A program made the translations under genes and the position numbers. Source: Octopus vulgaris (lineage: Eukaryota). From it: DNA of 64,000 bases. Positions 1,080-45,271 of the stretch are shown in pieces. The stretch spans positions 55,924,001-55,988,000 of the forward strand of contig OX597817.1 of the NCBI GenBank assembly GCA_951406725.2, written 5' to 3'. Below the pieces are notes generated by a model that saw only the letters and a program-made list of their open reading frames with translations, was not told the origin of the DNA and did not search any database. Each line of letters begins with the position of its first letter. The stretch's first letter is position 1.

Positions 1080-1338
1080 ACACATACATACATATTTACA
1101 TACATACACACATACATACATAGATACATGCATACATGCATACATACATACATACTTGCACATACATATCTACAAATACATACATACGTACATACACACA
1201 CACATACATACATACACGCACACATACATACATACATACATACACATACATACATACATACATACATACATACATACATACATACATACATACATACATA
1301 CACACACACATACATACATACATACATACATACATACA

Positions 1339-1372
<34 letters not shown>

Positions 1373-1402
1373 CATACATACATATACATATACATATATA
1401 TT

Positions 1403-1449
<47 letters not shown>

Positions 1450-1468
1450 TATATATATATATACATAC

Positions 1469-1556
<88 letters not shown>
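1080..1556. repeat. (TACA)n/(TA)n compound microsatellite, representative of dozens in the window
   Basis: Direct inspection. Confidence 0.95.
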
Positions 1557-1557
<1 letters not shown>

Positions 1558-1981
1558 TGGAGTCATTCTTGTTGTTTATTTTGATTATAATCAAAGATTA
1601 TAATCACAGATATATATATATATATACATATATTTTATGTATGTATAATATACCTATGTACATTTACATATACACAGGAGAGGGTGGCTATGTGATAAGT
1701 AGTTTCCTTACCAACCGCATGGTTCCATGTTCAGTCCCACTGTGTCTCTCCTTGAGCTAGTGTGTTCTACGTCCCCGACCGAAGCCTTGTAATGGATTTG
1801 ATGGACGGAAACTTGAAACCCTTCGAAGTTCATGTGTTTGTCAAACATCACTTGACTACCGATGCCGTCCCCGTATTAGAAGTTCAATCCGATACAATAA
1901 GACCTGGTTTCGATTTGCTCGACTAAATGGCGTGCCCCAGCATGGTCGCAGTCAAATGACTGATACAAGTAAAAGAATAAA

Positions 1982-2039
<58 letters not shown>

Positions 2040-2542
2040 ATATATGAATACATATACATGGATATAGATTTATATCAGTGTATACATACACATAGACAGG
2101 CACATATCATACACAGACACAGACATACACAGACTTTAATACACGCAGACACAGGCTCACATACAGGCACACACACGCATTCACACACACACTGGTAAGT
2201 GGTGTTGGTAAATGAGTGCACAAAAAATTCCATCGTATGTGTGTGTATATATATATATATATATGTTTGTTTCCATTCATGTATGCTTATATATGTATGT
2301 GTATGAATGTATGTAAAAATGTATTGTGTATGTATGTATTTATGTAACCTTGTGTATGCTTTTTCTATCACAGCAGCATGGAAACCGCTGTCGTTTGGTT
2401 TATGTCCCTCTAACTTAGCAGCTCTGCATAGAGTGCCCGATAGATATGTACTAGTTTTAGAAAAATACGAATCATTGTTATTACGGAAGATTTGTTCGAC
2501 TAAACCAGTCAACCTTTGTTAAGACCGCTATATATATGAGCT

Positions 2543-2626
<84 letters not shown>

Positions 2627-2788
2627 CATATAAATTTATGTACGTATACGCATATATGTATATATATACACGCACGCACACACACACAAACCACACAAAT
2701 ATATACATACTTATGACTGAAATAAGTAAAAGAATGAATATATATATATATATACACACACACACATACATATTTGTATGTTTATTCG

Positions 2789-2849
<61 letters not shown>

Positions 2850-2850
2850 C

Positions 2851-2934
<84 letters not shown>

Positions 2935-3293
2935 ACGTAATGTATTCAGGTATGTATGTGTTCGTATAATATATCCATGACATTGAGTTACGTTTGATAA
3001 AGCTCAGCAACTTCTTATGAAAATATGAACGTCATCATTATCATAATCTTTTATTTTGATTTTTCTTTTTGCCTTGTTCTTTTTCTTTTTCTTATTCTTT
3101 TTCTACGTCTCGTATCATAGAGGAAATCTTAATCATCAGCATCATCACCGTCATCGTAATCGTCATCCGTCACTTCAAATGTCAACGATTTATGCAACGT
3201 AATATCCACGCCACCCACGCAAGTAGTGTCAACCGCTAAAAGACCATCCTGTCAACATCGCTATCAATACACACACACACACGCATGTATATA

Positions 3294-3409
<116 letters not shown>

Positions 3410-3505
3410 TGTGCGTGTGTGTATGTATGTATATATATCAATGTATATATATATATATGTATATATATATATGTATATATATCTATGCATATATATATAT
3501 ATGTA

Positions 3506-3576
<71 letters not shown>

Positions 3577-3831
3577 ACATAAACATATATATGCATATGG
3601 ATATGTGTATGTATGTATGCATTAATATATAAATACATATTGATGCATGCATATACCTACATATGTATAGATATATATTCATATACATATAAAAATATAA
3701 ACAAATATGCGTATATATATATATGTATTACGTGCATATATATATATTTATATATATATATATATATATATACCATGCGTATATTATCTAAATAATATTA
3801 TATAATATATATGTGTGTTTGTGTATGTATG

Positions 3832-3884
<53 letters not shown>

Positions 3885-3999
3885 TACATACATGCATATG
3901 TGTGTGTACACCCATATATTATAATTGTCTATTTCTGATAGTATCCAGACTGAAGGCTTAATGGAAAATACATATAAACACGCTAACATACTTAGACAT

Positions 4000-4030
<31 letters not shown>

Positions 4031-4284
4031 CACACATACACGCACGCACACTCGCACACACATTGCCATACACCCATATAAACAACTACCCCATATTATT
4101 TACCATTTATTTTAATGATTTTACTTTTCAATATGTAAACTTAATTTTTCGGAAATATTAAACGAATTTATTTCAATATGACCGAGGTTCCTAGCCTCCA
4201 CTTCAACAAACAATATATATAAATGTGCATTTTTATCTGTATGTGTATACGTTTGTATATGGAGGGTTTGAGTGTATATATATA

Positions 4285-4343
<59 letters not shown>

Positions 4344-4461
4344 ATTAATGTGCTCCTGTCTCAAATCTTTGAACGTGCAGATGGCGAACCACGGATATCG
4401 GTATAAATTCACTTATGCATAGGTATTTGTTCCTAAATAATACTGTAATTCTCTCTCTCCT

Positions 4462-4506
<45 letters not shown>

Positions 4507-4643
4507 CTCGATATATGTATGTGTATATATATATGTATGTACAATTATGTATGTATATATACATAAATGCATACATGTATACATATATGTCTTTGAGTGT
4601 GTGTTTGTGTGCGTGCATGTGCATGTTTATCTATATGTGTGTA

Positions 4644-4687
<44 letters not shown>

Positions 4688-4713
4688 CATACATACATAC
4701 ATACATAAGTATA

Positions 4714-5635
4714 CTCGGTGCGGTGAACAAACTGTCGTCTAAATTACGCGAAAAAGAAAATAACACTGACGTCTCATTTTTACAGATATATTTACCAAAA
4801 CTACATTAAAATATCTTGAAGTACTAACGAGTAAATTTATTCAATAAAATCACCATTGGCTTCAACCACAGCCTCCAGACGACTTCGGAATCTCCTACAA
4901 CTTTTCTGGACGGTCTCCTTGTTTAAGTTGGTGAATGCTGCCATAATGCTCGCCTTCAGTTCATGGTGTTACAAGGAGTTTTGTTGTCTCTTGCTCAACT
5001 GCGTCCCATATATTATAACCAAGTGGATTGAAGTCTAGGGAGTTAGGTGGCCAGATTTTAGGGGTGATGTGGTCGCAGAAATTGTCTGATAGCCATGACT
5101 GGGTTCTCTTGCTTGCGTGGCATAGTGCAGAGTCCTGTTTCCAGACATAGGGTCTTCCAGCAGCCACTCTCTTGACCCACGGCAGCACTACCTCCTGCAG
5201 GCACTTGATGTAGGCCTCCGTGTTGAGTGCGAGGTCATGTGGGAAGATGAATGGCGGCGTAATGTCATCATCACTAGTAATCACTCCAAACACTATGACG
5301 TTGACTGGATGTGTTTTTACCACTCTCGGTACATGTTTTGGGAACTCACCAAGCCAACGGTTGCTCTGTGTGTTCAGCATCTGACCCTCGCAGAATCTTT
5401 TCCCGTCTGAGAAAAACCAAAGCAAGTTCGGTTGGAGGGGATGCTTAAGTTTGTTCAAAATCTTCGTAGCACGGTCTTTCCTTTTCTCCTTGATGGCTTG
5501 GGTTAAACATCGGCCCCTTTTTGTACCGACGTTGCCCAACTACCATACTGTGTAGTCGACAAAATGAAAAGCAAACAATGCGCATGCACGAAATTAAAAT
5601 ATATAAAATGGCGACAATCTAAACATCGCACCTTG
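4714..5635 (-). mobile_element. Internally deleted Tc1/mariner-superfamily transposon (DD37D, maT-like)
   Basis: ORF 4961-5539 has WFFSD, VFGVI, QDSALCH and WPPNSLDFNPLGY. There are 37 residues between the second D and the third-D position, which is now G. Degenerate TIRs CTCGGTGCGGTG...TGTCG / CGACA...CATCGCACCTTG. Confidence 0.8.
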
Positions 5636-5889
5636 AACCGTTATCCAGTCATTGAAACAAAGCATTCCAGCTCAGTCGATCAATTTGATTTCAGTTCTCA
5701 TTTTTTAAAACCCGGTCCATATTGCGTCGGTTACGCTTAGCGAGCCACTAGTTTGAAGTGATTTACACAAACAAACAAACACCGCCTAACTCTCGGTGCA
5801 TTAAAGACACAAACAAACAAACACCGCCTAACTCTCGGTGCATTTCAAAGAGGATATAAATATATGTTCTACTTTTCTTATTGTCTCTC

Positions 5890-9034: not shown

Positions 9035-9189
9035 ATATATATATTAAGAAATGAGTTTAGCTGTTTCTGAAGCTTAACCGGAACCTTTAGTTGCTGCGGA
9101 TTGAATCTGCGCTTGCGCCGAGGATTAGAAAAATTACAATATAAAAGGATGAGAGACGTGTTATTTGGTCTCTAATTTATATGTTAGTG

Positions 9190-9276
9190 TTTTGGCGGAT
9201 CCACTGATGAGAACTTCGCGTTGCAAATTATTTTATTTGTTAATTAAAGTTCGAAACCTAAGGTCCGGCTGTAAAA
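9190..9276 (+). ncRNA. Type I hammerhead ribozyme (slightly decayed stem I)
   Basis: CCA-CTGATGA-GAACTT...AAGTTC-GAAA-CCTAAGG-TC^CGG: perfect 6-bp stem II; element flanked by (TA)n at ~9000 and ~9411. Confidence 0.7.
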
Positions 9277-9407
9277 CATGGTAAATGTTTTTATTTTTTA
9301 TTCCCTTTGAAATTGCCCCTATCTGTGGTTTGGACTTTTTGACTGTTCTTTCTAGTATGCTAGGCAACCCGTTAAGGCTTGTCTCTTTGTAGTTAAATGT
9401 ACACTAA

Positions 9408-9447
<40 letters not shown>

Positions 9448-10017
9448 TGGGGATTCTTTCTATTTCCGTCTACCAAATCCACTCACAAGTATTTAATCGG
9501 CCAAAATCTACAATAGAAGACACTTCTCAAAATGTCACGCAGTGGAACTGAACCCAAAACCATGTAGTTAGGAAACAAACACCTTACCACACTGTTACGC
9601 CTCCGTGAATATCTCCTCATTGCTTTCACAACTTGAGTGAAGGCTTGTTTTTAAGGAGGTCAGACTAAGAAGGTTATGTATCCGGTGCTCGTCTTGCTCG
9701 TATTGCTAGAATAAATAGGAATTACCGTTAGATATTGATTAATATCGTTCGGTTATTAGCACAGAGTTTTTTATTGTTAGCGATTTTAATATAAAAATTG
9801 AACCATCAATGTAAATTAACACTAACGTAACTGTGACTCTATAACGGATCGAAAAATATGCGTTCATACAGGCAGCAGGTAACTGCTGGCAGTGAAACTT
9901 ATAGACCGGAAGTGAGACATTCAGTGCAGACAGACAGAAATACTGACATGCAGATATAAAGTACATAATGTATGAAACAAAGAGACCGTGCGAACAACAA
10001 TGATATTGAAGGGACAA

Positions 10018-10382
10018 AGCTGGCAGAAACGTTAGCACGCCAGGCGAAATGCTTTGTGGTATTTCGTCCGCCGCTACGTTCCGAGTTCAAATTCCGCCGA
10101 GGTCGACTTTGCCTTTCATTTTTTCGGGGTTGATTAAATGAGTACCAGTTACGCACTGGGGTCGATGTAATCGACTTAATACCTTTGTCTGTCCTTGTTT
10201 GTCCGCTCTGTGTTTAGCCCCTTGTGGGTAGTAAAGAAATAGGTATCTCGTCTGTCTTTACGTTCTGAGTTCAAATTCTGTCGAGGTCGATTATGCCTTT
10301 CATTCTTTCAAGATCGATAAATTAAGTACCAGTTACGTACTGGGGGCCATCTTATCGACTGCCCCCTCCCCAAAAATTTCGG
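10018..10382 (+). mobile_element. SINE family A, composite form
   Basis: Same two-block layout as 42709-43119. Confidence 0.8.
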
Positions 10383-10399
10383 ATAACTCGGTTCACCAA

Positions 10400-11815
10400 A
10401 GAACTTAAAATGGAGGATCCCTGAAATGTTTAGAAATTTCCACTTCGCCGTTAAAAGTGTTGTGTATGGAGAATGTGAATCGGTTTGCTCTGTTCTGTTT
10501 TGGAAATCCCTAGCATGTCAAATTTTTTACGCAGAACTCTTGTTACATAGTCCAGGGCCCCGATGTTAAAAGGTCCAAACGAAAATCAATAATCTGGATA
10601 CAAGAGAAATAGGTTTTTCGTTAGTCTCCCATAGACGTTTCTCCCTTTTCCCTAACTTTTGACGAGATATTCCCTTCCACCTGTCAGCTGGTTTCTACAA
10701 CATTGCATGACTTTTGCTCCCTGTCAAATACAACAATATCTGCTCTGTTGTGTTTATATCGTCTTGTTGGTTTTACGGCAATGTTCTACAATTATTTTTT
10801 ATTATTATTTTTAAAGGTATGGACACTTCCTGGTCGTAGTGTGCTTTTAGTATGGCTGTCATGACAGTTCTTCTTGCGTTTAACTTTGTCGTTGGTCTCA
10901 GTGACGATGTCATATACGGGAAAGTAGGATTTTGCCGACATTTTTAGACAGCTGATAATTCATGCGATATCTTCCATACTGCTATCGTACAATCGATATT
11001 TTCAATCATAGATTTAGAGACACTTTTTACTCTCCTGTTGACCATGGTATTTACTATCTATCCCCTGTTCTTGGATAACAAAAGCGTAATCTATTTCTTT
11101 TTTCTTTACTACTCACAAGGGGCTAAACACAGAGAGGACAAACAAGGACAGTCAGACGAATTAAGTCGATTACATCGACCCCAGTGCATAACTGGTGCTT
11201 AATTTATCGATCCCGAAAGGATGAAAGGCAAAGTCGATCTCGGCGGAATTTGAACTCAGAACGTAGCGGCAGACGAAATACCGCAGAGCATTTCGCCTGG
11301 CGTGCTAACGTTTCTGCCAGCTCGCCACCTACACAAAAGCGTAATCTGATAGGAGAGATGTGACGCATGAATCGCCGGCCCAAGAGAGTATACTATTCCT
11401 ATCAATATTGTTGGTATTCTCAAACTGGCGGGATATGTACCCATGCATATCTTTCTGCTAGTATGATGAGCGTTTCTCAATCTAGTCAGCCTTGGTTTAC
11501 GTGGAACTGCAGTTCTCTTTGAAAACCTCTTAAAGAGTTCTTCGTTCGATCTAATTATGTTATTAACATCACTGCTGAATATACGCTCGGTGGACTCATT
11601 TCCCTCTTTAATCTTCAGTTTGCGTTGTCGAGGTGTCACGATGCGGCACTTAAAAGAACTGGTTTATACTTCTATCTCCATCCCTTCATTAAACATAGAT
11701 CTTATCAGGGTCACTGTTTACTTGGAATTTATCAGTGGTTGCAGTATCTTCCTCGTCCCTATGTCGAAGTTCCCAATTTCATCATGTACCCAGTCCAGTG
11801 TCCTAAATGTTGACA
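10400..11815 (-). mobile_element. Decayed RLE-type non-LTR retrotransposon (R4/Dong-like) 3' region
   Basis: Minus-strand fragments LDWVHDEIGNFDIGTRKIL, NSDPDKIY, AFVIQEQ, KYRLYDSSMEDIA*IISC (eroded zinc knuckle), HNRADIVVFDREQK (PD..D endonuclease region), LYPDY, IGALDYV. Interrupted by a SINE. Confidence 0.7.
11093..11332 (-). mobile_element. tRNA-derived SINE family A with 15-bp TSD
   Basis: Head GGCGAGCTGGCAGAAACGTTAG, B-box GAGTTCAAATTCC; TSD ACAAAAGCGTAATCT at 11078-11092 and 11333-11347. Confidence 0.9.
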
Positions 11816-11837
11816 CTATATTTGTCTGTCTGTCTGT

Positions 11838-11899
<62 letters not shown>

Positions 11900-12298
11900 G
11901 TCTGTCTATCTATCTTTCTATGTAAGTATCTATCTATCAATTCATCTGTCTATCTATTTATGTATATTTGTATGTATATATATATATATATACCCATACG
12001 TGTGTACACACACAGACATTCACGGACACAGATACGCATATAGTCTTATATAAGACTAGCAATATATTTTGAAGGGAGGGTGAAGCGATTGCATCGACCC
12101 CAATGCTCAACTGGTACTTACTTTATCGGACCCTAAAGGATGAAGGGGAAAAAATGGACCCCGGTGACATTTGAACTCCGAACGCAGAGAGCCGGAAAAA
12201 AATGCAATTAAGCATTATTTTCTAACGTGCTAACGATATTCTCAGCTCACCGCATAGTACTATGATGAGTGTGTGTGTGTGTGTGAGTGTGTGTGTAT

Positions 12299-12404
<106 letters not shown>

Positions 12405-12889
12405 AAACACAAAGGAAGCGAGGGAGATGATGGCGTCACTTAGTTTTTAAAGACACGAGTACAGCGAAATGTAAGCATTAATTGCGTCCGATTATTTAAT
12501 CGTTAACTAGTCAAACTATGAATAACTACAAAGGTAATTTACTTCTCGTTTCAACGAAGTCAGTTTAACCACAAAAATATGATTAATATAATGGATATAT
12601 TGACAGTATTAATAAAGTAAGCAAATTAATGCTACTTTTAAGATATATTTGAAAAAGAAAACTGCTTTAATTTTAATATTCTTCATCATACAACGTTATT
12701 AAGACTTGCTGTTAATATCTACTTGATTACATTCATTCCAAGATCTTTTGTGTTTGGCAAACTTAAAAAGATTTTCATCAAAGTCGCCATCGAGAATTGT
12801 CCAATTACATAAGCTGAACTGGTCTTTCCGTTCTGTTAGCTGCAGAATCTTGATACTCAGTAACTGCTGAGCGCCATTTTGTGAATATC

Positions 12890-13385
12890 TGTTTCTTTAT
12901 TACCCACAAGGGGCCAAACATAGAGGGGACAAACAAGGACAGACAGACGGATTAAGTCGATTACATCGACCCCAGTGCGTGGCTGGTACTTAATTTATCG
13001 ACCCCGAAAGGATGAAAGGCAAAGTCGACCTCGGTGGAATTTGAACTCACAACGTAACGGCGGACGAAATACCGCAGAGCATTTCGCCCGGCGTGCTAAT
13101 ATTTCTGCCAGCTCGCCGCCTTATTTGAACTCACAATGTAACGGCGGATGAAATACCTATTTCTTTACTACTCACAAGGGGCTAAACACAAAGGGGACAA
13201 ACAAGGACAGACATAGGTATTAAGTCGATTACATCGACCCCAGTGCGTAACTGGTACTTAATTTATCGACCCCGAAAGGATGAAAGGCAAAATCGACCAA
13301 GGCGGAATTTGAACGAACGTAACGGCAGACGAAATACGGCGCATTTCGACCGGCGTGCTAACGATTCAGCCAGCTCACCGCCCTC
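12890..13385 (-). mobile_element. Tandem dimer of SINE family A within one 16-bp TSD
   Basis: Two family A copies; CCATTTTGTGAATATC at 12874-12889 and 13386-13401. Confidence 0.85.
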
Positions 13386-14021: not shown

Positions 14022-14225
14022 TACAAAATTAGAATGTGGAACACATTCTTCGTGGAAAATGACGAATTTGACATCTATATCTACCATATAGCCTGTCCAT
14101 TTTTTTAGAGTTCAATCCTCTAAATGTTGTATGTAGAAAACATTTTTAATCTTCAGATTTTTTAAAATATGCTAGGCCACTGGTTGTAATTGATTAATAT
14201 CAATTTCTACCCTTATTTAATTATA

Positions 14226-15796: not shown

Positions 15797-15916
15797 CCGT
15801 GAAAATAATAAGGGTAGATAATTTAGAAACATTTCCATACCGGTACCTAGCGTGCGTAATAAAGTCAATAGACAACATATTTTCGTATATAATAGTATAA
15901 TAACAATTTATGTATT

Positions 15917-16333
15917 TATACACGAAAGAGGCGACCTGTAACAGGACACCTTACAAGCTAGGAAGGGCAGTTAAAGCCTAAACCACAAATAAGAGCAATT
16001 TCAAAGGGAATGAAAGTAAAAAATATTTTTGTAGTTAACCTCAGACTCGAGTTTCTGTATCAATGTGCAAAATAAATTGATATGCCATCCGTACTTCTTC
16101 AGTGAGGGCGCTAAAATTAATGCATATAGCAGCAAATAATGCAGCAAATAGCACCGAAAATACACTTACTACATACTTATACATTATTATTTTGAAGTCC
16201 ACTGCGCAAGCGCAATTACAAAATTATTTTTTACTTTCATTTCCTTTGAAATTGCTCTTATTCGTGATTTGGGCTTTAACTGCCCTTTCTAGCATGTAAG
16301 GTATCCTGTCAATGGTCACCTTTTTCGTGTATA
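15917..16333. repeat. Diverged inverted repeat (~120-bp arms) of a hammerhead-element 3' flank
   Basis: 15917-16036 is the imperfect reverse complement of 16214-16333. The arm sequence resembles 9290-9395, which lies downstream of another hammerhead. Confidence 0.75.
16039..16107 (-). ncRNA. Type I hammerhead ribozyme
   Basis: Minus strand reads CCTCA-CTGAAGA-AGTAC...GATACA-GAAA-CTCGAG-TC^TGAGG: 5-bp stem I, palindromic stem III, GUC. Confidence 0.75.
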
Positions 16334-16989: not shown

Positions 16990-17795
16990 CAAGGTAATCG
17001 ATCAGCAAGACACCTTGAGAATCCCAAAAAGGCCAGCTGAAGGAATGCCCCTGGCCTTCTTTTGGGTAGAAGAAGATGTGTGCTTCCACTACTTTGATTG
17101 TTCTTTGGTTTCAGGCTGGTGGTGATTAACCCAACTTTCGTCCATAGTAATGAAACGAGCAAGAAAATTCTCTTCACCGGCTTCAAACAGTTTCAGATTA
17201 CTCGTGGACAAAGTGCACTTGGTGCGTTTCTGTTTAGGAGTCAAAAGGCGAGGGACCCACCTTGCAGAAACCTTTGAGGACCCAAGTTCTTTTGTCTCAA
17301 TGTTGTCTGCTCTTTCAGCTGAGATGCCCAGTCTCTCGGCTATCTGACGACATGATATTCGACAAGCTTGCATTATCATACCAAGAGCCAAGGTCAATGT
17401 TGTCCTCGATGGTTGCAGTTGGAGGTCTCCCTGGTCTAGGATCATCTTCCACACTCTCCCTGCCACACTGGAATTTATCTACCCAGTGCTTGATTGTTGC
17501 ATTTGAAGGAGTATTGTCTGTTAAGGTTCTCAACATATCTTCATGGATTTCTGATGGAGTCATACCTTTCAGAATTAGGTACTTTCTGACAGCACGATGT
17601 CAGTTTTCTCCATTTTCCTTGTAACCTTGACATTTGTTTATTAAAAAATCTGCAACAACAAAAAAAATTTAATATCAGAATCATGAAAATGAGCAAGAGT
17701 ACTCCGAAAAGACTGTACTTACCAGAAAAAATTCTTTCAGCTCCCTAGCAGCCCCGTTTCTCGGTTAGTCTCAAAACTTTTCATACACCCCTCGT
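16990..17795 (-). mobile_element. mariner transposon 5' half (frameshifted, truncated)
   Basis: TIR TACGAGGGTGTATGAAAAGTTTTGAGAC at the right end; ATG at 17613; DDPRPGRP, KVSARWVPRLL, FITMDESWV, PETKEQSK. Confidence 0.85.
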
Positions 17796-27882: not shown

Positions 27883-28002
27883 CACGATCAAGGAACAGCC
27901 ATAATAGGCCATTCACCCACTAGAAATAACAGCCAAAGCCTCAACCGCAAAATAACATCAATTCCGTAAACAGGAGAAAATTAAAAAAACGTTTACCCTG
28001 CA

Positions 28003-28110
28003 ATTTCTTATACGATGCACCGTTTCGTCTACTGTTTAATGGTAAAACTAACCTGATTAAATTAAATCAAGCCAATCTTCCATAGGCCCTTAGATTCATC
28101 AGTAAGAAAT
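28003..28110 (-). ncRNA. Type I hammerhead ribozyme (mirror copy)
   Basis: Reverse complement of 28185-28292. Confidence 0.8.
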
Positions 28111-28184
28111 AGCCATATCGGAACAGATATTTTCACGAGGCATTTCACAGAATGCCTCGTGAAAATATCTGTTCCGATATGGCT

Positions 28185-28292
28185 ATTTCTTACTGATGAA
28201 TCTAAGGGCCTATGGAAGATTGGCTTGATTTAATTTAATCAGGTTAGTTTTACCATTAAACAGTAGACGAAACGGTGCATCGTATAAGAAAT
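28185..28292 (+). ncRNA. Type I hammerhead ribozyme
   Basis: ATTTCTTA-CTGATGA-ATCTA...TAGAC-GAAA-CGGTGCATCG-TA^TAAGAAAT: 8-bp stem I, near-palindromic stem III, GUA site; A-C mismatch at the base of stem II. Confidence 0.8.
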
Positions 28293-28510
28293 TGCAGGGT
28301 AAACGTTTTTTTAATTTTCTCCTGTTTACGGAATTGATGTTATTTTGCGGTTGAGGCTTTTGTTATTTCTAGTGGGTGAATGGCCTATTATGGCTGTTCC
28401 TTGATCGTGATGTTGAACTTATAAATGGTCTATGACTATTTAATTTTTTCCCGCTAGGCCGCTGGTGGCAAAAAAATTCTACAAAATTTTTTGCCACCCT
28501 ATATTGATTA

Positions 28511-28600
<90 letters not shown>

Positions 28601-33897: not shown

Positions 33898-35840
<1,943 letters not shown>

Positions 35841-41590: not shown

Positions 41591-42708
41591 GGTCACCTTG
41601 TGATGAAATCGCTAAATCAAAGTTTTATTATGACCCGTGCTACGTATTTTTTTTTTGTCTGCACTAAACTTACGTGTCACGAGTTCGAATCTCTTTCACA
41701 TATAAGGACTTCACAATATATATTTTCCGAGATGAACAGATCAAGTCAACCTGTTTGAAACGACAAACAAGGAATTAGCTGTCTTCAGCAGACCTTGCTA
41801 CTTGGCGAGCATTTGTCCCTGGAATGCCCTCGGTCCTAGAGATCCTAAAACTTGTTATGGGCGTTTAAATTCATCTAAAAATTGAAAGAAACTATTATGA
41901 GTCTAATTAGACGCGAGTATAGTTCTGTGGTTAAGAAAAATCACTTTATTACGACGTAGTTTCGGGTTTAACTGTTTGTCAGATTAGGCAAGTGTCTTTT
42001 AATACGGCTCCGGGACGATTAATGTCTTACGCGTGAATTTGGCAGACAGGAACTGTGCAGAAGCCTGTTGTGTATGTGTTCGTGTATGTATACATTTGTG
42101 TGTCTGTGTGTCTTTGAACCTGCGTTTGTCTTCCATTGCTTGACAAATTGAGTTGGTTTATTTAAGTACCCACTAATTTAGCGGTACAGCAAAAGGGAAC
42201 GATAGAATAAGTTTAAGACTTAAAATGCAATCAAGTACTAGGATGGATTTATTTAACTGAAACACTTTGTGGTGGAGCCCCAGCATGACCGCAGTTCAAG
42301 GACTGCTACAAGTAAACTTTGTCTGAATTTCTTTCCCCCTCTCTTTCTTTCTCTCTCCCTCCTCTCTCTTTCTCTCGCTCTCTCTTTCACTCTTCCATAA
42401 AACATCCTATCTATGAGCCTATGTTACTAACCAAACACGCTAGATGGCGTAGTTCCATCGATTTTCTATATTTGGTTCGATCCATTCCTATGCAATTCAG
42501 CCTCGACATCAAAATCTCCTAGCCCATCCTGGGCCCATTCGTCTGGTACTGATCAACAAATGACGTAGATGCACTCAAGTATATCAACCTCAGTATGTTG
42601 TAACTTTCTGCCCTTGCTGAGAACCATTGATATTATTTCGGGCATCGAACCTACAGAATCTCTAGAACGTCAAAGAACAAGCAGTGCGGTCTTTTTTCAT
42701 TCTGCTCT

Positions 42709-43119
42709 AGGGCGGCGAGCTTGCAGAAACGTTAGCACGCCGGGCGAAATGCGTAGCCGTATTTCGTCTGCCGTTACGTTTCTGAGTTCAAATTCCGCCG
42801 AGGTCGACTTTGCCTTTCATCCTTTCGGGGTCGATTAAATAAGTACCAGTTACGCACTGGGATCGATGTAATCGACTTAATCCATTTGTCTGTCCTTGTT
42901 TGTCTCCTCTGTATTTAGCTCCTTGTGGGCAGTAAAGAAATAGATATTTCATCTGCCGCTACGTTCTGAGTTCAAATTTTGCCGAGGTCGACTTTGCCTT
43001 TTAACGTTTCGGAGTCGATAAAATAAGTACCAGTTACGCACTGGGGTCTATGTAATCGACTAGCTCCTTTCCTCCAAAAATTTTCAAGGCCTTATGCCTA
43101 GAGTAGAAATGATTATTTG
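42709..43119 (+). mobile_element. SINE family A, composite form, 10-bp TSD
   Basis: B-box/central block present twice; TSD ATTCTGCTCT at 42699-42708 and 43120-43129. Confidence 0.85.
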
Positions 43120-45009: not shown

Positions 45010-45104
45010 AAAAATATCACAAGACTGTTTCTCAGAGTTTAACGTTCCCGTTCGTCCGACAAACGGGAACGTGAAACTCTGAGTAACAGATTTTGTGATA
45101 TTTT
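45010..45104. repeat. Fold-back hairpin of a decayed minimal hammerhead
   Basis: Inverted arms read outward as C(C/G)GAC(A/G)A-ACG-GGAA-CGT-(G/T)AAA-CTCTGAG-(T/A)A-ACAG; next to (TA)n. Confidence 0.65.
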
Positions 45105-45271
45105 TTCTGTTTTTTTAATAAAACATATTACTCTACCTCCGGTATTCGAGTACTATTTTTTCCACCTTGTTTCGTATTTATGTACTCACTCTGTACAAGC
45201 GTATAAATATACGAATATATTTAAATATATATATATATATGCGTATATATATATATATATATATATGTGTT

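What the first reader, a model, noticed from the sequence alone, without database searches (positions are those of the whole stretch)
14172..14224. Conserved 3'-terminal motif with a covarying hairpin shared by otherwise dissimilar (TA)n-inserted elements
Seen, immediately before (TA)n in three places. 14172(+): CTAGGCCACT-GGTTGTAATTGAT-TAAT-ATCAATTTCTACC-CTTATTTAATTA. 28454-28515(+): CTAGGCCGCT-GGTGGCAAAAAA-ATTCTACAAAA-TTTTTTGCCACC-CTATATTGATTAATA. 55956-55883(-): CTAGGCCACTT-GGTGTAGAATAGATATACTA-TTAAAT-TAGTATCTAATTCTCTCACC-CTTATTAATTAATTA. The flanking words are conserved, while the hairpin interior differs yet stays paired. Inference: this is a cis signal recognised by the mobilising reverse transcriptase that positions priming on (TA)n, or an uncharacterised structured RNA.
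Basis: partly seen in the sequence, partly recalled or inferred. Interest (0 to 1): 0.75.

Follow-up and report, generated by a model that had tools for sequence, protein, structure and literature searches.

The report
Folded RNA tail of octopus retrozymes
The motif is the end part of a larger predicted RNA fold, kept by paired base changes, at the end of thousands of protein-free, hammerhead-bearing mobile elements in an octopus genome, and it likely tells a Penelope-type reverse transcriptase where to start copying them into TA repeats.

Summary
Observation confirmed. The motif has 6,672 exact genome matches against 0 for the reversed control. It ends a superfamily of 470-560-bp non-coding units that carry type-I hammerhead motifs, form tandem and inverted insertions in (TA)n, and fit non-LTR retrozymes (non-autonomous Penelope-like elements). 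The motif lies in the PLE 'tail'. Copies end either just after the hairpin (long end) or about 90-125 nt earlier (short end), and 22 of 22 scored inverted insertions had one of each (one doubtful). It is a long-range helix (P1) that pairs CTAG plus 4 preceding bases with a word 80-105 nt upstream: 96.6% paired over 15 family representatives, 4 of 8 pairs compensatory, and recovered blind by RNAalifold. A further family (2,064 matches) swaps even the CTAG word and keeps the predicted helix. The families are distant relatives, not unrelated. Likely role: an RNA docking domain that sets two reverse-transcription start sites (inferred). The autonomous partner was not found among five Hydra-type, several Neptune-type and one older PLE family. 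New variant of a known kind.

The parts
14172..14224 (+). Family F motif: P1 3' strand, GCCACT linker, terminal hairpin P3, AT-only priming zone, long end at (TA)n
14039..14225 (+). 5'-truncated, decayed family F copy (no hammerhead; P1 5' strand lost)
   Evidence: 90% to family reference over 188 nt; CM 64 bits; weak fold
28151..28512 (+). Family B arm ending at the long terminus
27883..28146 (-). Family B inverted arm ending at the short terminus (no tail), with hammerhead 28102-28011
28193..28284 (+). Type-I hammerhead motif, family B (CTGATGA core, GAAA, 8-bp stem I, GUA site)
28369..28376 (+). P1 5' strand, family B; pairs with 28450-28457
28454..28512 (+). Family B motif, terminal hairpin P3 and long end
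55886..57354 (-). Family A arm: 534-bp tandem units; motifs at 57024, 56490, 55956; hammerheads at 57310, 56776, 56242; long end at (TA)n
57353..58777 (+). Family A inverted arm: motifs at 57766, 58300; hammerheads at 57480, 58014, 58548; short end at (TA)n
56053..56060 (-). P1 5' strand of the last family A unit; pairs with 55960-55953
15799..16102 (-).
   Evidence: (49.5 bits)
9156..9411 (+). Related copy with hammerhead-like motif 9204-9265 ending at the short terminus on (TA)n

Best explanation
The motif is the 3' part of a covarying, predicted RNA domain in the tail of non-coding, hammerhead-bearing elements that insert into (TA)n, and it likely acts as the docking site that positions a borrowed Penelope-type reverse transcriptase at two fixed start points. 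Shown: 470-560-bp units without ORF, type-I hammerhead motifs about 170-220 nt upstream of the motif, tandem and inverted insertions, two end positions, one long plus one short end per inverted insertion, and covariation of helix P1. Inferred: tandem transcripts self-cleave and may circularise. A PLE RT/GIY-YIG protein binds the domain (P1 closing a multiloop, an unpaired sequence-conserved RCCRCT/ACACTT linker, hairpin P3 with an invariant GG-CC base) and cuts both strands of (TA)n. It primes one cut end in the AT-only stretch 10-17 nt after P3 and the other inside the P1 loop just after hairpin P2. The two cDNAs join head to head, giving the inverted insertion with a tail on one side. Copying round a circle or along a multimer gives the tandem arrays.
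For: 6,672 + 251 + 2,064 pattern matches against controls of 0, 3 and 0. 63 of 79 non-edge copies not followed by another unit abut (TA)n, background 6%. Ends are bimodal: 84 long, 43 short, 2 other in 89 sources; 22 of 22 scored inverted insertions are long+short. An autonomous Hydra-type PLE obeys the same rule, 12 of 12. P1: 96.6% of cells paired, 4 of 8 pairs with two-sided change, 0 of 500 shuffles reach the whole-structure covariation score, slid controls 31-48% paired. RNAalifold finds P1 unprompted. Own-family pairing 55 of 60 against 43.7 +/- 2.3 permuted. Family G changes P3 pair 3 from U-A to A-U. Family K has other P1 words but the same layout and a hammerhead. One-sided changes in P1 are to G-U, and the hammerhead strand folds better than its complement (-45.3 against -34.6 kcal/mol), which favours RNA. 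In vitro, a Poseidon PLE cuts and extends both strands, starts RT at two internal sites in a stem-loop that bound the tail, and is predicted to be a dimer (PMC11167929).
Against: No autonomous PLE with this domain at its own end was found in about 190 PLE loci, so the RT is unidentified. Families are related, so the shuffle counts are not p-values. P3 is not recovered by RNAalifold and has U-U/U-C pairs above its base in the E/F families. In 3 of 15 representatives (E, E2, H) single-sequence folding gives P3 a probability of 0.33 or less and P1 0.03-0.62. A strict hammerhead test passed in only 8 of 14 representatives. Autonomous Hydra-type families make long and short ends with unlike tail sequences, so this exact domain is not needed by every PLE.
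Confidence: 0.62

Rival explanations
1. The fold is real but serves the RNA's life cycle (stability of the circle, keeping the hammerhead on or off, host ligase or export factor), and the two ends are set by AT-rich microhomology or by the RT alone.
For: Metazoan retrozyme circles must block their hammerhead by an unknown means (PMC7229834 Discussion). Junctions wobble by several bases in an AT-only stretch. No partner PLE shares the domain.
Against: Both ends sit at fixed places relative to the domain across families only 44-60% alike, although many other AT-rich stretches exist in the units. The unpaired linker is sequence-invariant, as for a protein contact.
Confidence: 0.2
2. The signal is read as DNA: the GIY-YIG endonuclease recognises the tail, or a cruciform or folded cDNA, during resolution of the insertion.
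For: The Drosophila virilis Penelope tail was reported as needed for EN recognition (as cited in PMC11167929). Craig et al. ascribe the tail to EN-mediated resolution (PMC8557442).
Against: P1 tolerates G-U pairs on the hammerhead strand, which are A-C mismatches on the other strand. P1 is long-range with a 70-95-nt loop, unlike a cruciform.
Confidence: 0.12
3. It is a rolling-circle DNA element end (Helitron/Helentron type): on the other strand a hairpin is followed by CTAG.
For: The reverse strand reads hairpin, 6 nt, CTAG, and tandem arrays occur. The Helitron end pattern is recalled, not from a call.
Against: The element continues for hundreds of bases beyond that CTAG and the host junction is on the other side. 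Family K lacks CTAG. Hammerheads and long/short inverted ends match PLEs.
Confidence: 0.03

Closest known systems
Metazoan non-LTR retrozymes (PMC7229834; bioRxiv 10.64898/2026.07.22.740005)
   Same: Non-coding tandem units with a type-I hammerhead per unit, low GC, proposed to be mobilised by PLEs.
   Different: Not reported for cephalopods in the texts I saw. Those texts describe no conserved 3' domain, no two-end rule and no (TA)n targeting. Units here are 470-560 bp with a long stem II (41-69 nt). No sister pLTR was found among the PLEs tested.
PLE pseudo-LTR and 'tail'; Poseidon-Ac internal initiation (PMC11167929; PMC8557442)
   Same: Partial tandems, inverted 5'-truncated arm, tail on one end only, hammerhead upstream of the end, AT-rich target, stem-loop at the start sites.
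   Different: The tail is about 90-125 nt rather than 30-40, is non-coding, and is part of a helix-closed domain that covaries over many families.
Hydra-clade PLEs in the same genome (five families; RWK, DKT, CxCx5C, CxxC and CxH motifs as defined in PMC8557442 section 11)
   Same: (TA)n target, hammerhead with palindromic stem III, tails of about 70-120 nt, one long plus one short end. The 727-aa family's tail holds the words CCACT-GGT...ACC-T.
   Different: None scores with the domain model at its own end. The 727-aa family's long end lies about 27 nt after ACC rather than 10-17.
Stringent LINE/SINE 3' stem-loops and telomerase RNA RT-binding elements (recalled, no call)
   Same: A structured RNA element beside the priming site that recruits the RT.
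   Different: Different RT clade or role; two start sites here; no sequence likeness tested.

Membership tests
non-LTR retrozyme | Type-I hammerhead motif in each tandem unit | tested here: met
   All six family A units in the window, and B, D and K units. Strict test passed 8 of 14 representatives; no Rfam hammerhead hit.
non-LTR retrozyme | Tandem units of a few hundred bp, low GC, no ORF | tested here: met
   Units of 473, 492, 534 and 545-563 bp; GC 26-36%; no PLE ORF upstream in 81 motif loci.
non-LTR retrozyme | Self-cleavage and circular RNA in vivo | not testable with these tools
   Only assembled contigs were available.
non-autonomous PLE derivative | Partial tandem plus inverted 5'-truncated arm; tail at one end | tested here: met
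   22 of 22 scored inverted insertions long+short, one doubtful.
non-autonomous PLE derivative | Homology to the pLTR of an autonomous PLE | tested here: inconclusive
   None in five Hydra-type, several Neptune-type and one older family. Other families, Naiads included, were not sampled in the genome.
autonomous PLE | RT and GIY-YIG ORF | tested here: not met
Helitron/Helentron | Element ends at CTRR after a hairpin, with host sequence next (recalled definition) | tested here: not met
   Element sequence continues past CTAG; the junction is on the other side.
known Rfam family | Score at gathering threshold | tested here: not met
   0 hits in 5 loci; best E 0.21 and 1.5 in two window units.

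The most novel reading that the evidence does not exclude
The PLE tail is a folded RNA module, akin in role to telomerase RNA's RT-binding domain, that holds the two active sites of a PLE RT dimer at two registers about 100 nt apart on the template. Both strands of a cut (TA)n are then primed at once, which would explain the inverted arms and the one-sided tail of Penelope-like elements. These retrozymes keep the minimal module, and it could serve as a portable handle for (TA)n-targeted insertion.
Probability: 0.3. Interest if true: 0.75.

Novelty: new variant of a known kind. Interest (0 to 1): 0.52.

Why it matters
How PLE reverse transcriptases, the sister group of telomerase, choose their template and why insertions carry inverted arms and a one-sided tail is stated as unresolved in PMC8557442 and only partly answered in PMC11167929. 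How animal retrozymes recruit an RT is likewise open (PMC7229834; bioRxiv 10.64898/2026.07.22.740005). A domain of about 150 nt with natural compensatory variants across some 16 families, and two mapped ends, gives a minimal substrate and ready-made mutants for that test. It also classifies about 9,000 repeat ends in an octopus genome.

Tried and rejected
Partner search. Neptune-type and other GIY-YIG loci: 30 and 20, no motif at an element end. Hydra-type loci: 40, 50 and 30, none at own ends; motif pieces there are neighbours across (TA)n or an old passenger copy in one family's 3' UTR. An older PLE family: 20 loci, none at own ends. Patterns for motif followed by a Hydra-type ORF start gave 2 and 1 matches, none coding. 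tblastn of 81 motif loci gave 10 with PLE hits, one contiguous. Naiads were not searched in the genome; the motif words were absent from the supplement of PMC8557442, which holds nucleotide consensus sequences, though line breaks or cuts could hide them.

A P1-like helix in Hydra families 1/2 was not convincingly supported. An H-type pseudoknot idea was dropped: the supposed partner lies in local hairpin P2.

Expression: no RNA holder listed. A T>C excess on family A in two runs guessed to be RNA (16 and 14 places against 3 in a control run) was not reproduced as A>G on family B. A 565-nt contig (534+31) cannot tell a circle from a tandem array.

Metagenome scan: 70 hits, best 36.9 bits and the other 12 listed at 24 bits or less, read as chance. 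Rfam on the whole window: the 150 of 364 rows shown were below threshold and nearly all microsatellite-like miRNA models. Earlier findings of the scan: none returned. One representative (H2, L085) was dropped before the covariation counts because no candidate 5' strand was found, and the decayed 14172 copy was left out of them.

Full report
Observation. The three strings are present as quoted. The window also holds four more copies inside a 534-bp tandem and inverted array (55886-58777), a decayed fourth family at 15850(-) and a related piece at 9156-9411. In the 2.8-Gb own genome the pattern has 6,672 exact matches and the reversed control none. A variant with another third base has 251 against 3. 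The host is an octopus, judged from source names of proteins 70-95% identical to ORFs in this genome.

Junctions. Among 102 distinct copies from the window and 81 loci, 63 abut (TA)n within 30 nt, 19 run into the next unit, 16 are other and 4 are cut by an edge; background is 6%. The loci are the first listed on two contigs plus some chosen for diversity, so this is not a random sample. In the young families A and B the junction falls 10-17 nt after CCCT in an AT-only stretch, varying by a few bases.

What the elements are. Units are 473-563 bp with no ORF. A type-I hammerhead motif with long stem II and mostly palindromic stem III lies 169-220 nt upstream of the motif. A strict test passed in 8 of 14 representatives and family K has one; Rfam does not score them. 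Palindromic helix III and dimer folding are typical of metazoan and PLE hammerheads (PMC4209133, passages). Tandem non-coding units with type-I hammerheads define non-LTR retrozymes (PMC7229834, passages and Discussion), argued to be non-autonomous PLE derivatives (bioRxiv 10.64898/2026.07.22.740005, parts 1-3 of 5, supplements not seen).

Two ends. Copies stop at (TA)n either just after the hairpin or, in most cases, 25-47 nt before CTAG. In 89 sources there were 84 long, 43 short and 2 other ends. All 22 inverted insertions with both ends scored had one long and one short end; L216 is doubtful, and at least one long end was favoured by how loci were picked. A young autonomous Hydra-type PLE shows the same in 12 of 12 inverted insertions among 22 loci, after 8 overlapping loci were dropped. 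[quoted passage not shown] In vitro, Poseidon-Ac cuts and extends both target strands, and its two start sites, in a stem-loop, bound the tail (PMC11167929, parts 1-2 of 4).

Structure. CTAG and the four bases before it pair with a word about 80-105 nt upstream (P1). On a structure-blind MAFFT alignment of 15 representatives RNAalifold returns P1. 96.6% of P1 cells pair and 4 of 8 pairs show two-sided change. For the whole 19-pair structure none of 500 shuffles reaches the covariation score, and slid controls pair 31-48%. Own-family pairing at the variable positions is 55 of 60 against 43.7 +/- 2.3 permuted. Relatedness means these are not p-values. P1 encloses hairpin P2 (62.9% paired in the imperfect alignment, 6 of 8 pairs with two-sided change) and the short end. 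It is interrupted by U-U/U-C in the E/F families and was not recovered by RNAalifold. Three of 15 representatives fold otherwise as single sequences. Family K (2,064 matches, control 0) replaces the CTAG words with another complementary pair, present upstream in 19 of 32 copies examined, while keeping the ACACTT linker and P3. What is conserved is therefore helix, unpaired linker, hairpin base. G-U tolerance and better folding of the hammerhead strand point to RNA.

Partner. The genome holds Neptune-type PLEs, five Hydra-type families by the motifs of PMC8557442 section 11 and an older family. None has the domain at its own end. Two weak leads conflict. The 727-aa Hydra-type family has CCACT-GGT...ACC-T in its tail. 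Two insertions join a motif family directly, with no (TA)n, to a Neptune-type element, as a template jump would (L235, L236); every other adjacent PLE pair listed had (TA)n between. Later insertion or deletion could also explain the two chimeras.

Mechanism. Shown: anatomy, ends, covariation. Inferred (0.62): the domain docks a PLE RT/EN and sets two priming registers, one after P3 and one after P2, so both strands of a cut (TA)n are extended and the cDNAs join as inverted arms. Rivals are a role in RNA processing or stability (0.2), DNA-level recognition by the endonuclease (0.12) and a Helitron end (0.03). Expression and self-cleavage were not shown.

Novelty. Retrozymes, PLE tails and (TA)n targeting are known. 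Eight literature searches (listings only, except the five papers named) gave no description of a covarying tail domain or of octopus retrozymes. Repbase, Dfam and subscription papers could not be checked, so the families may already be catalogued as repeats. Verdict: new variant of a known kind, interest 0.52.

Noticed in passing
L258 1438-3588; Very young Hydra-type PLE: 150 of 150 scored hits 99-100% identical, intact 717-aa frame, 11,199 first-look candidates. A good candidate for in vitro work.
   Followed up: partly
L141 2076-5348; L144 2394-5345: Hydra-type PLEs with long Asn-rich insertions (about 960-1070 aa) and tails of about 120 nt ending in a hairpin. Pfam finds nothing in 3 of the 4 Hydra-type ORFs scanned and only a sub-threshold unrelated hit in the fourth.
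   Followed up: partly
L235 (-) 1244-4848; L236 (-) 1603-5877: Motif-family element joined without (TA)n to a Neptune-type element; possible template jump.
   Followed up: partly
L194-L199, about 550 nt after the ORF: A decayed family K copy is fixed in the 3' UTR of one Hydra-type family and is carried as a passenger.
   Followed up: no
window about 45050-45200 (+): Decayed pLTR piece of the 727-aa Hydra-type family with its tail.
   Followed up: no
window 10004-13382, 34300-35490, 42700-43080, 61336-61574: Many copies of an abundant short repeat, 85-90% alike; SINE-like (name recalled, not tested).
   Followed up: no
window 4961-5539 (-), 17089-17478 (-): Tc1/mariner-like transposase fragments, judged by eye from the translation.
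   Followed up: no
window 63235-63696 (-) region: Reverse frame of what may be an endonuclease/RT fragment of a LINE; not checked.
   Followed up: no
window 55880-56420: The family A unit is held at 0.61-1.00 of sampled words by 20 runs from 9 studies and six coded organism labels, one run possibly the source; the family is not private to this assembly.
   Followed up: partly
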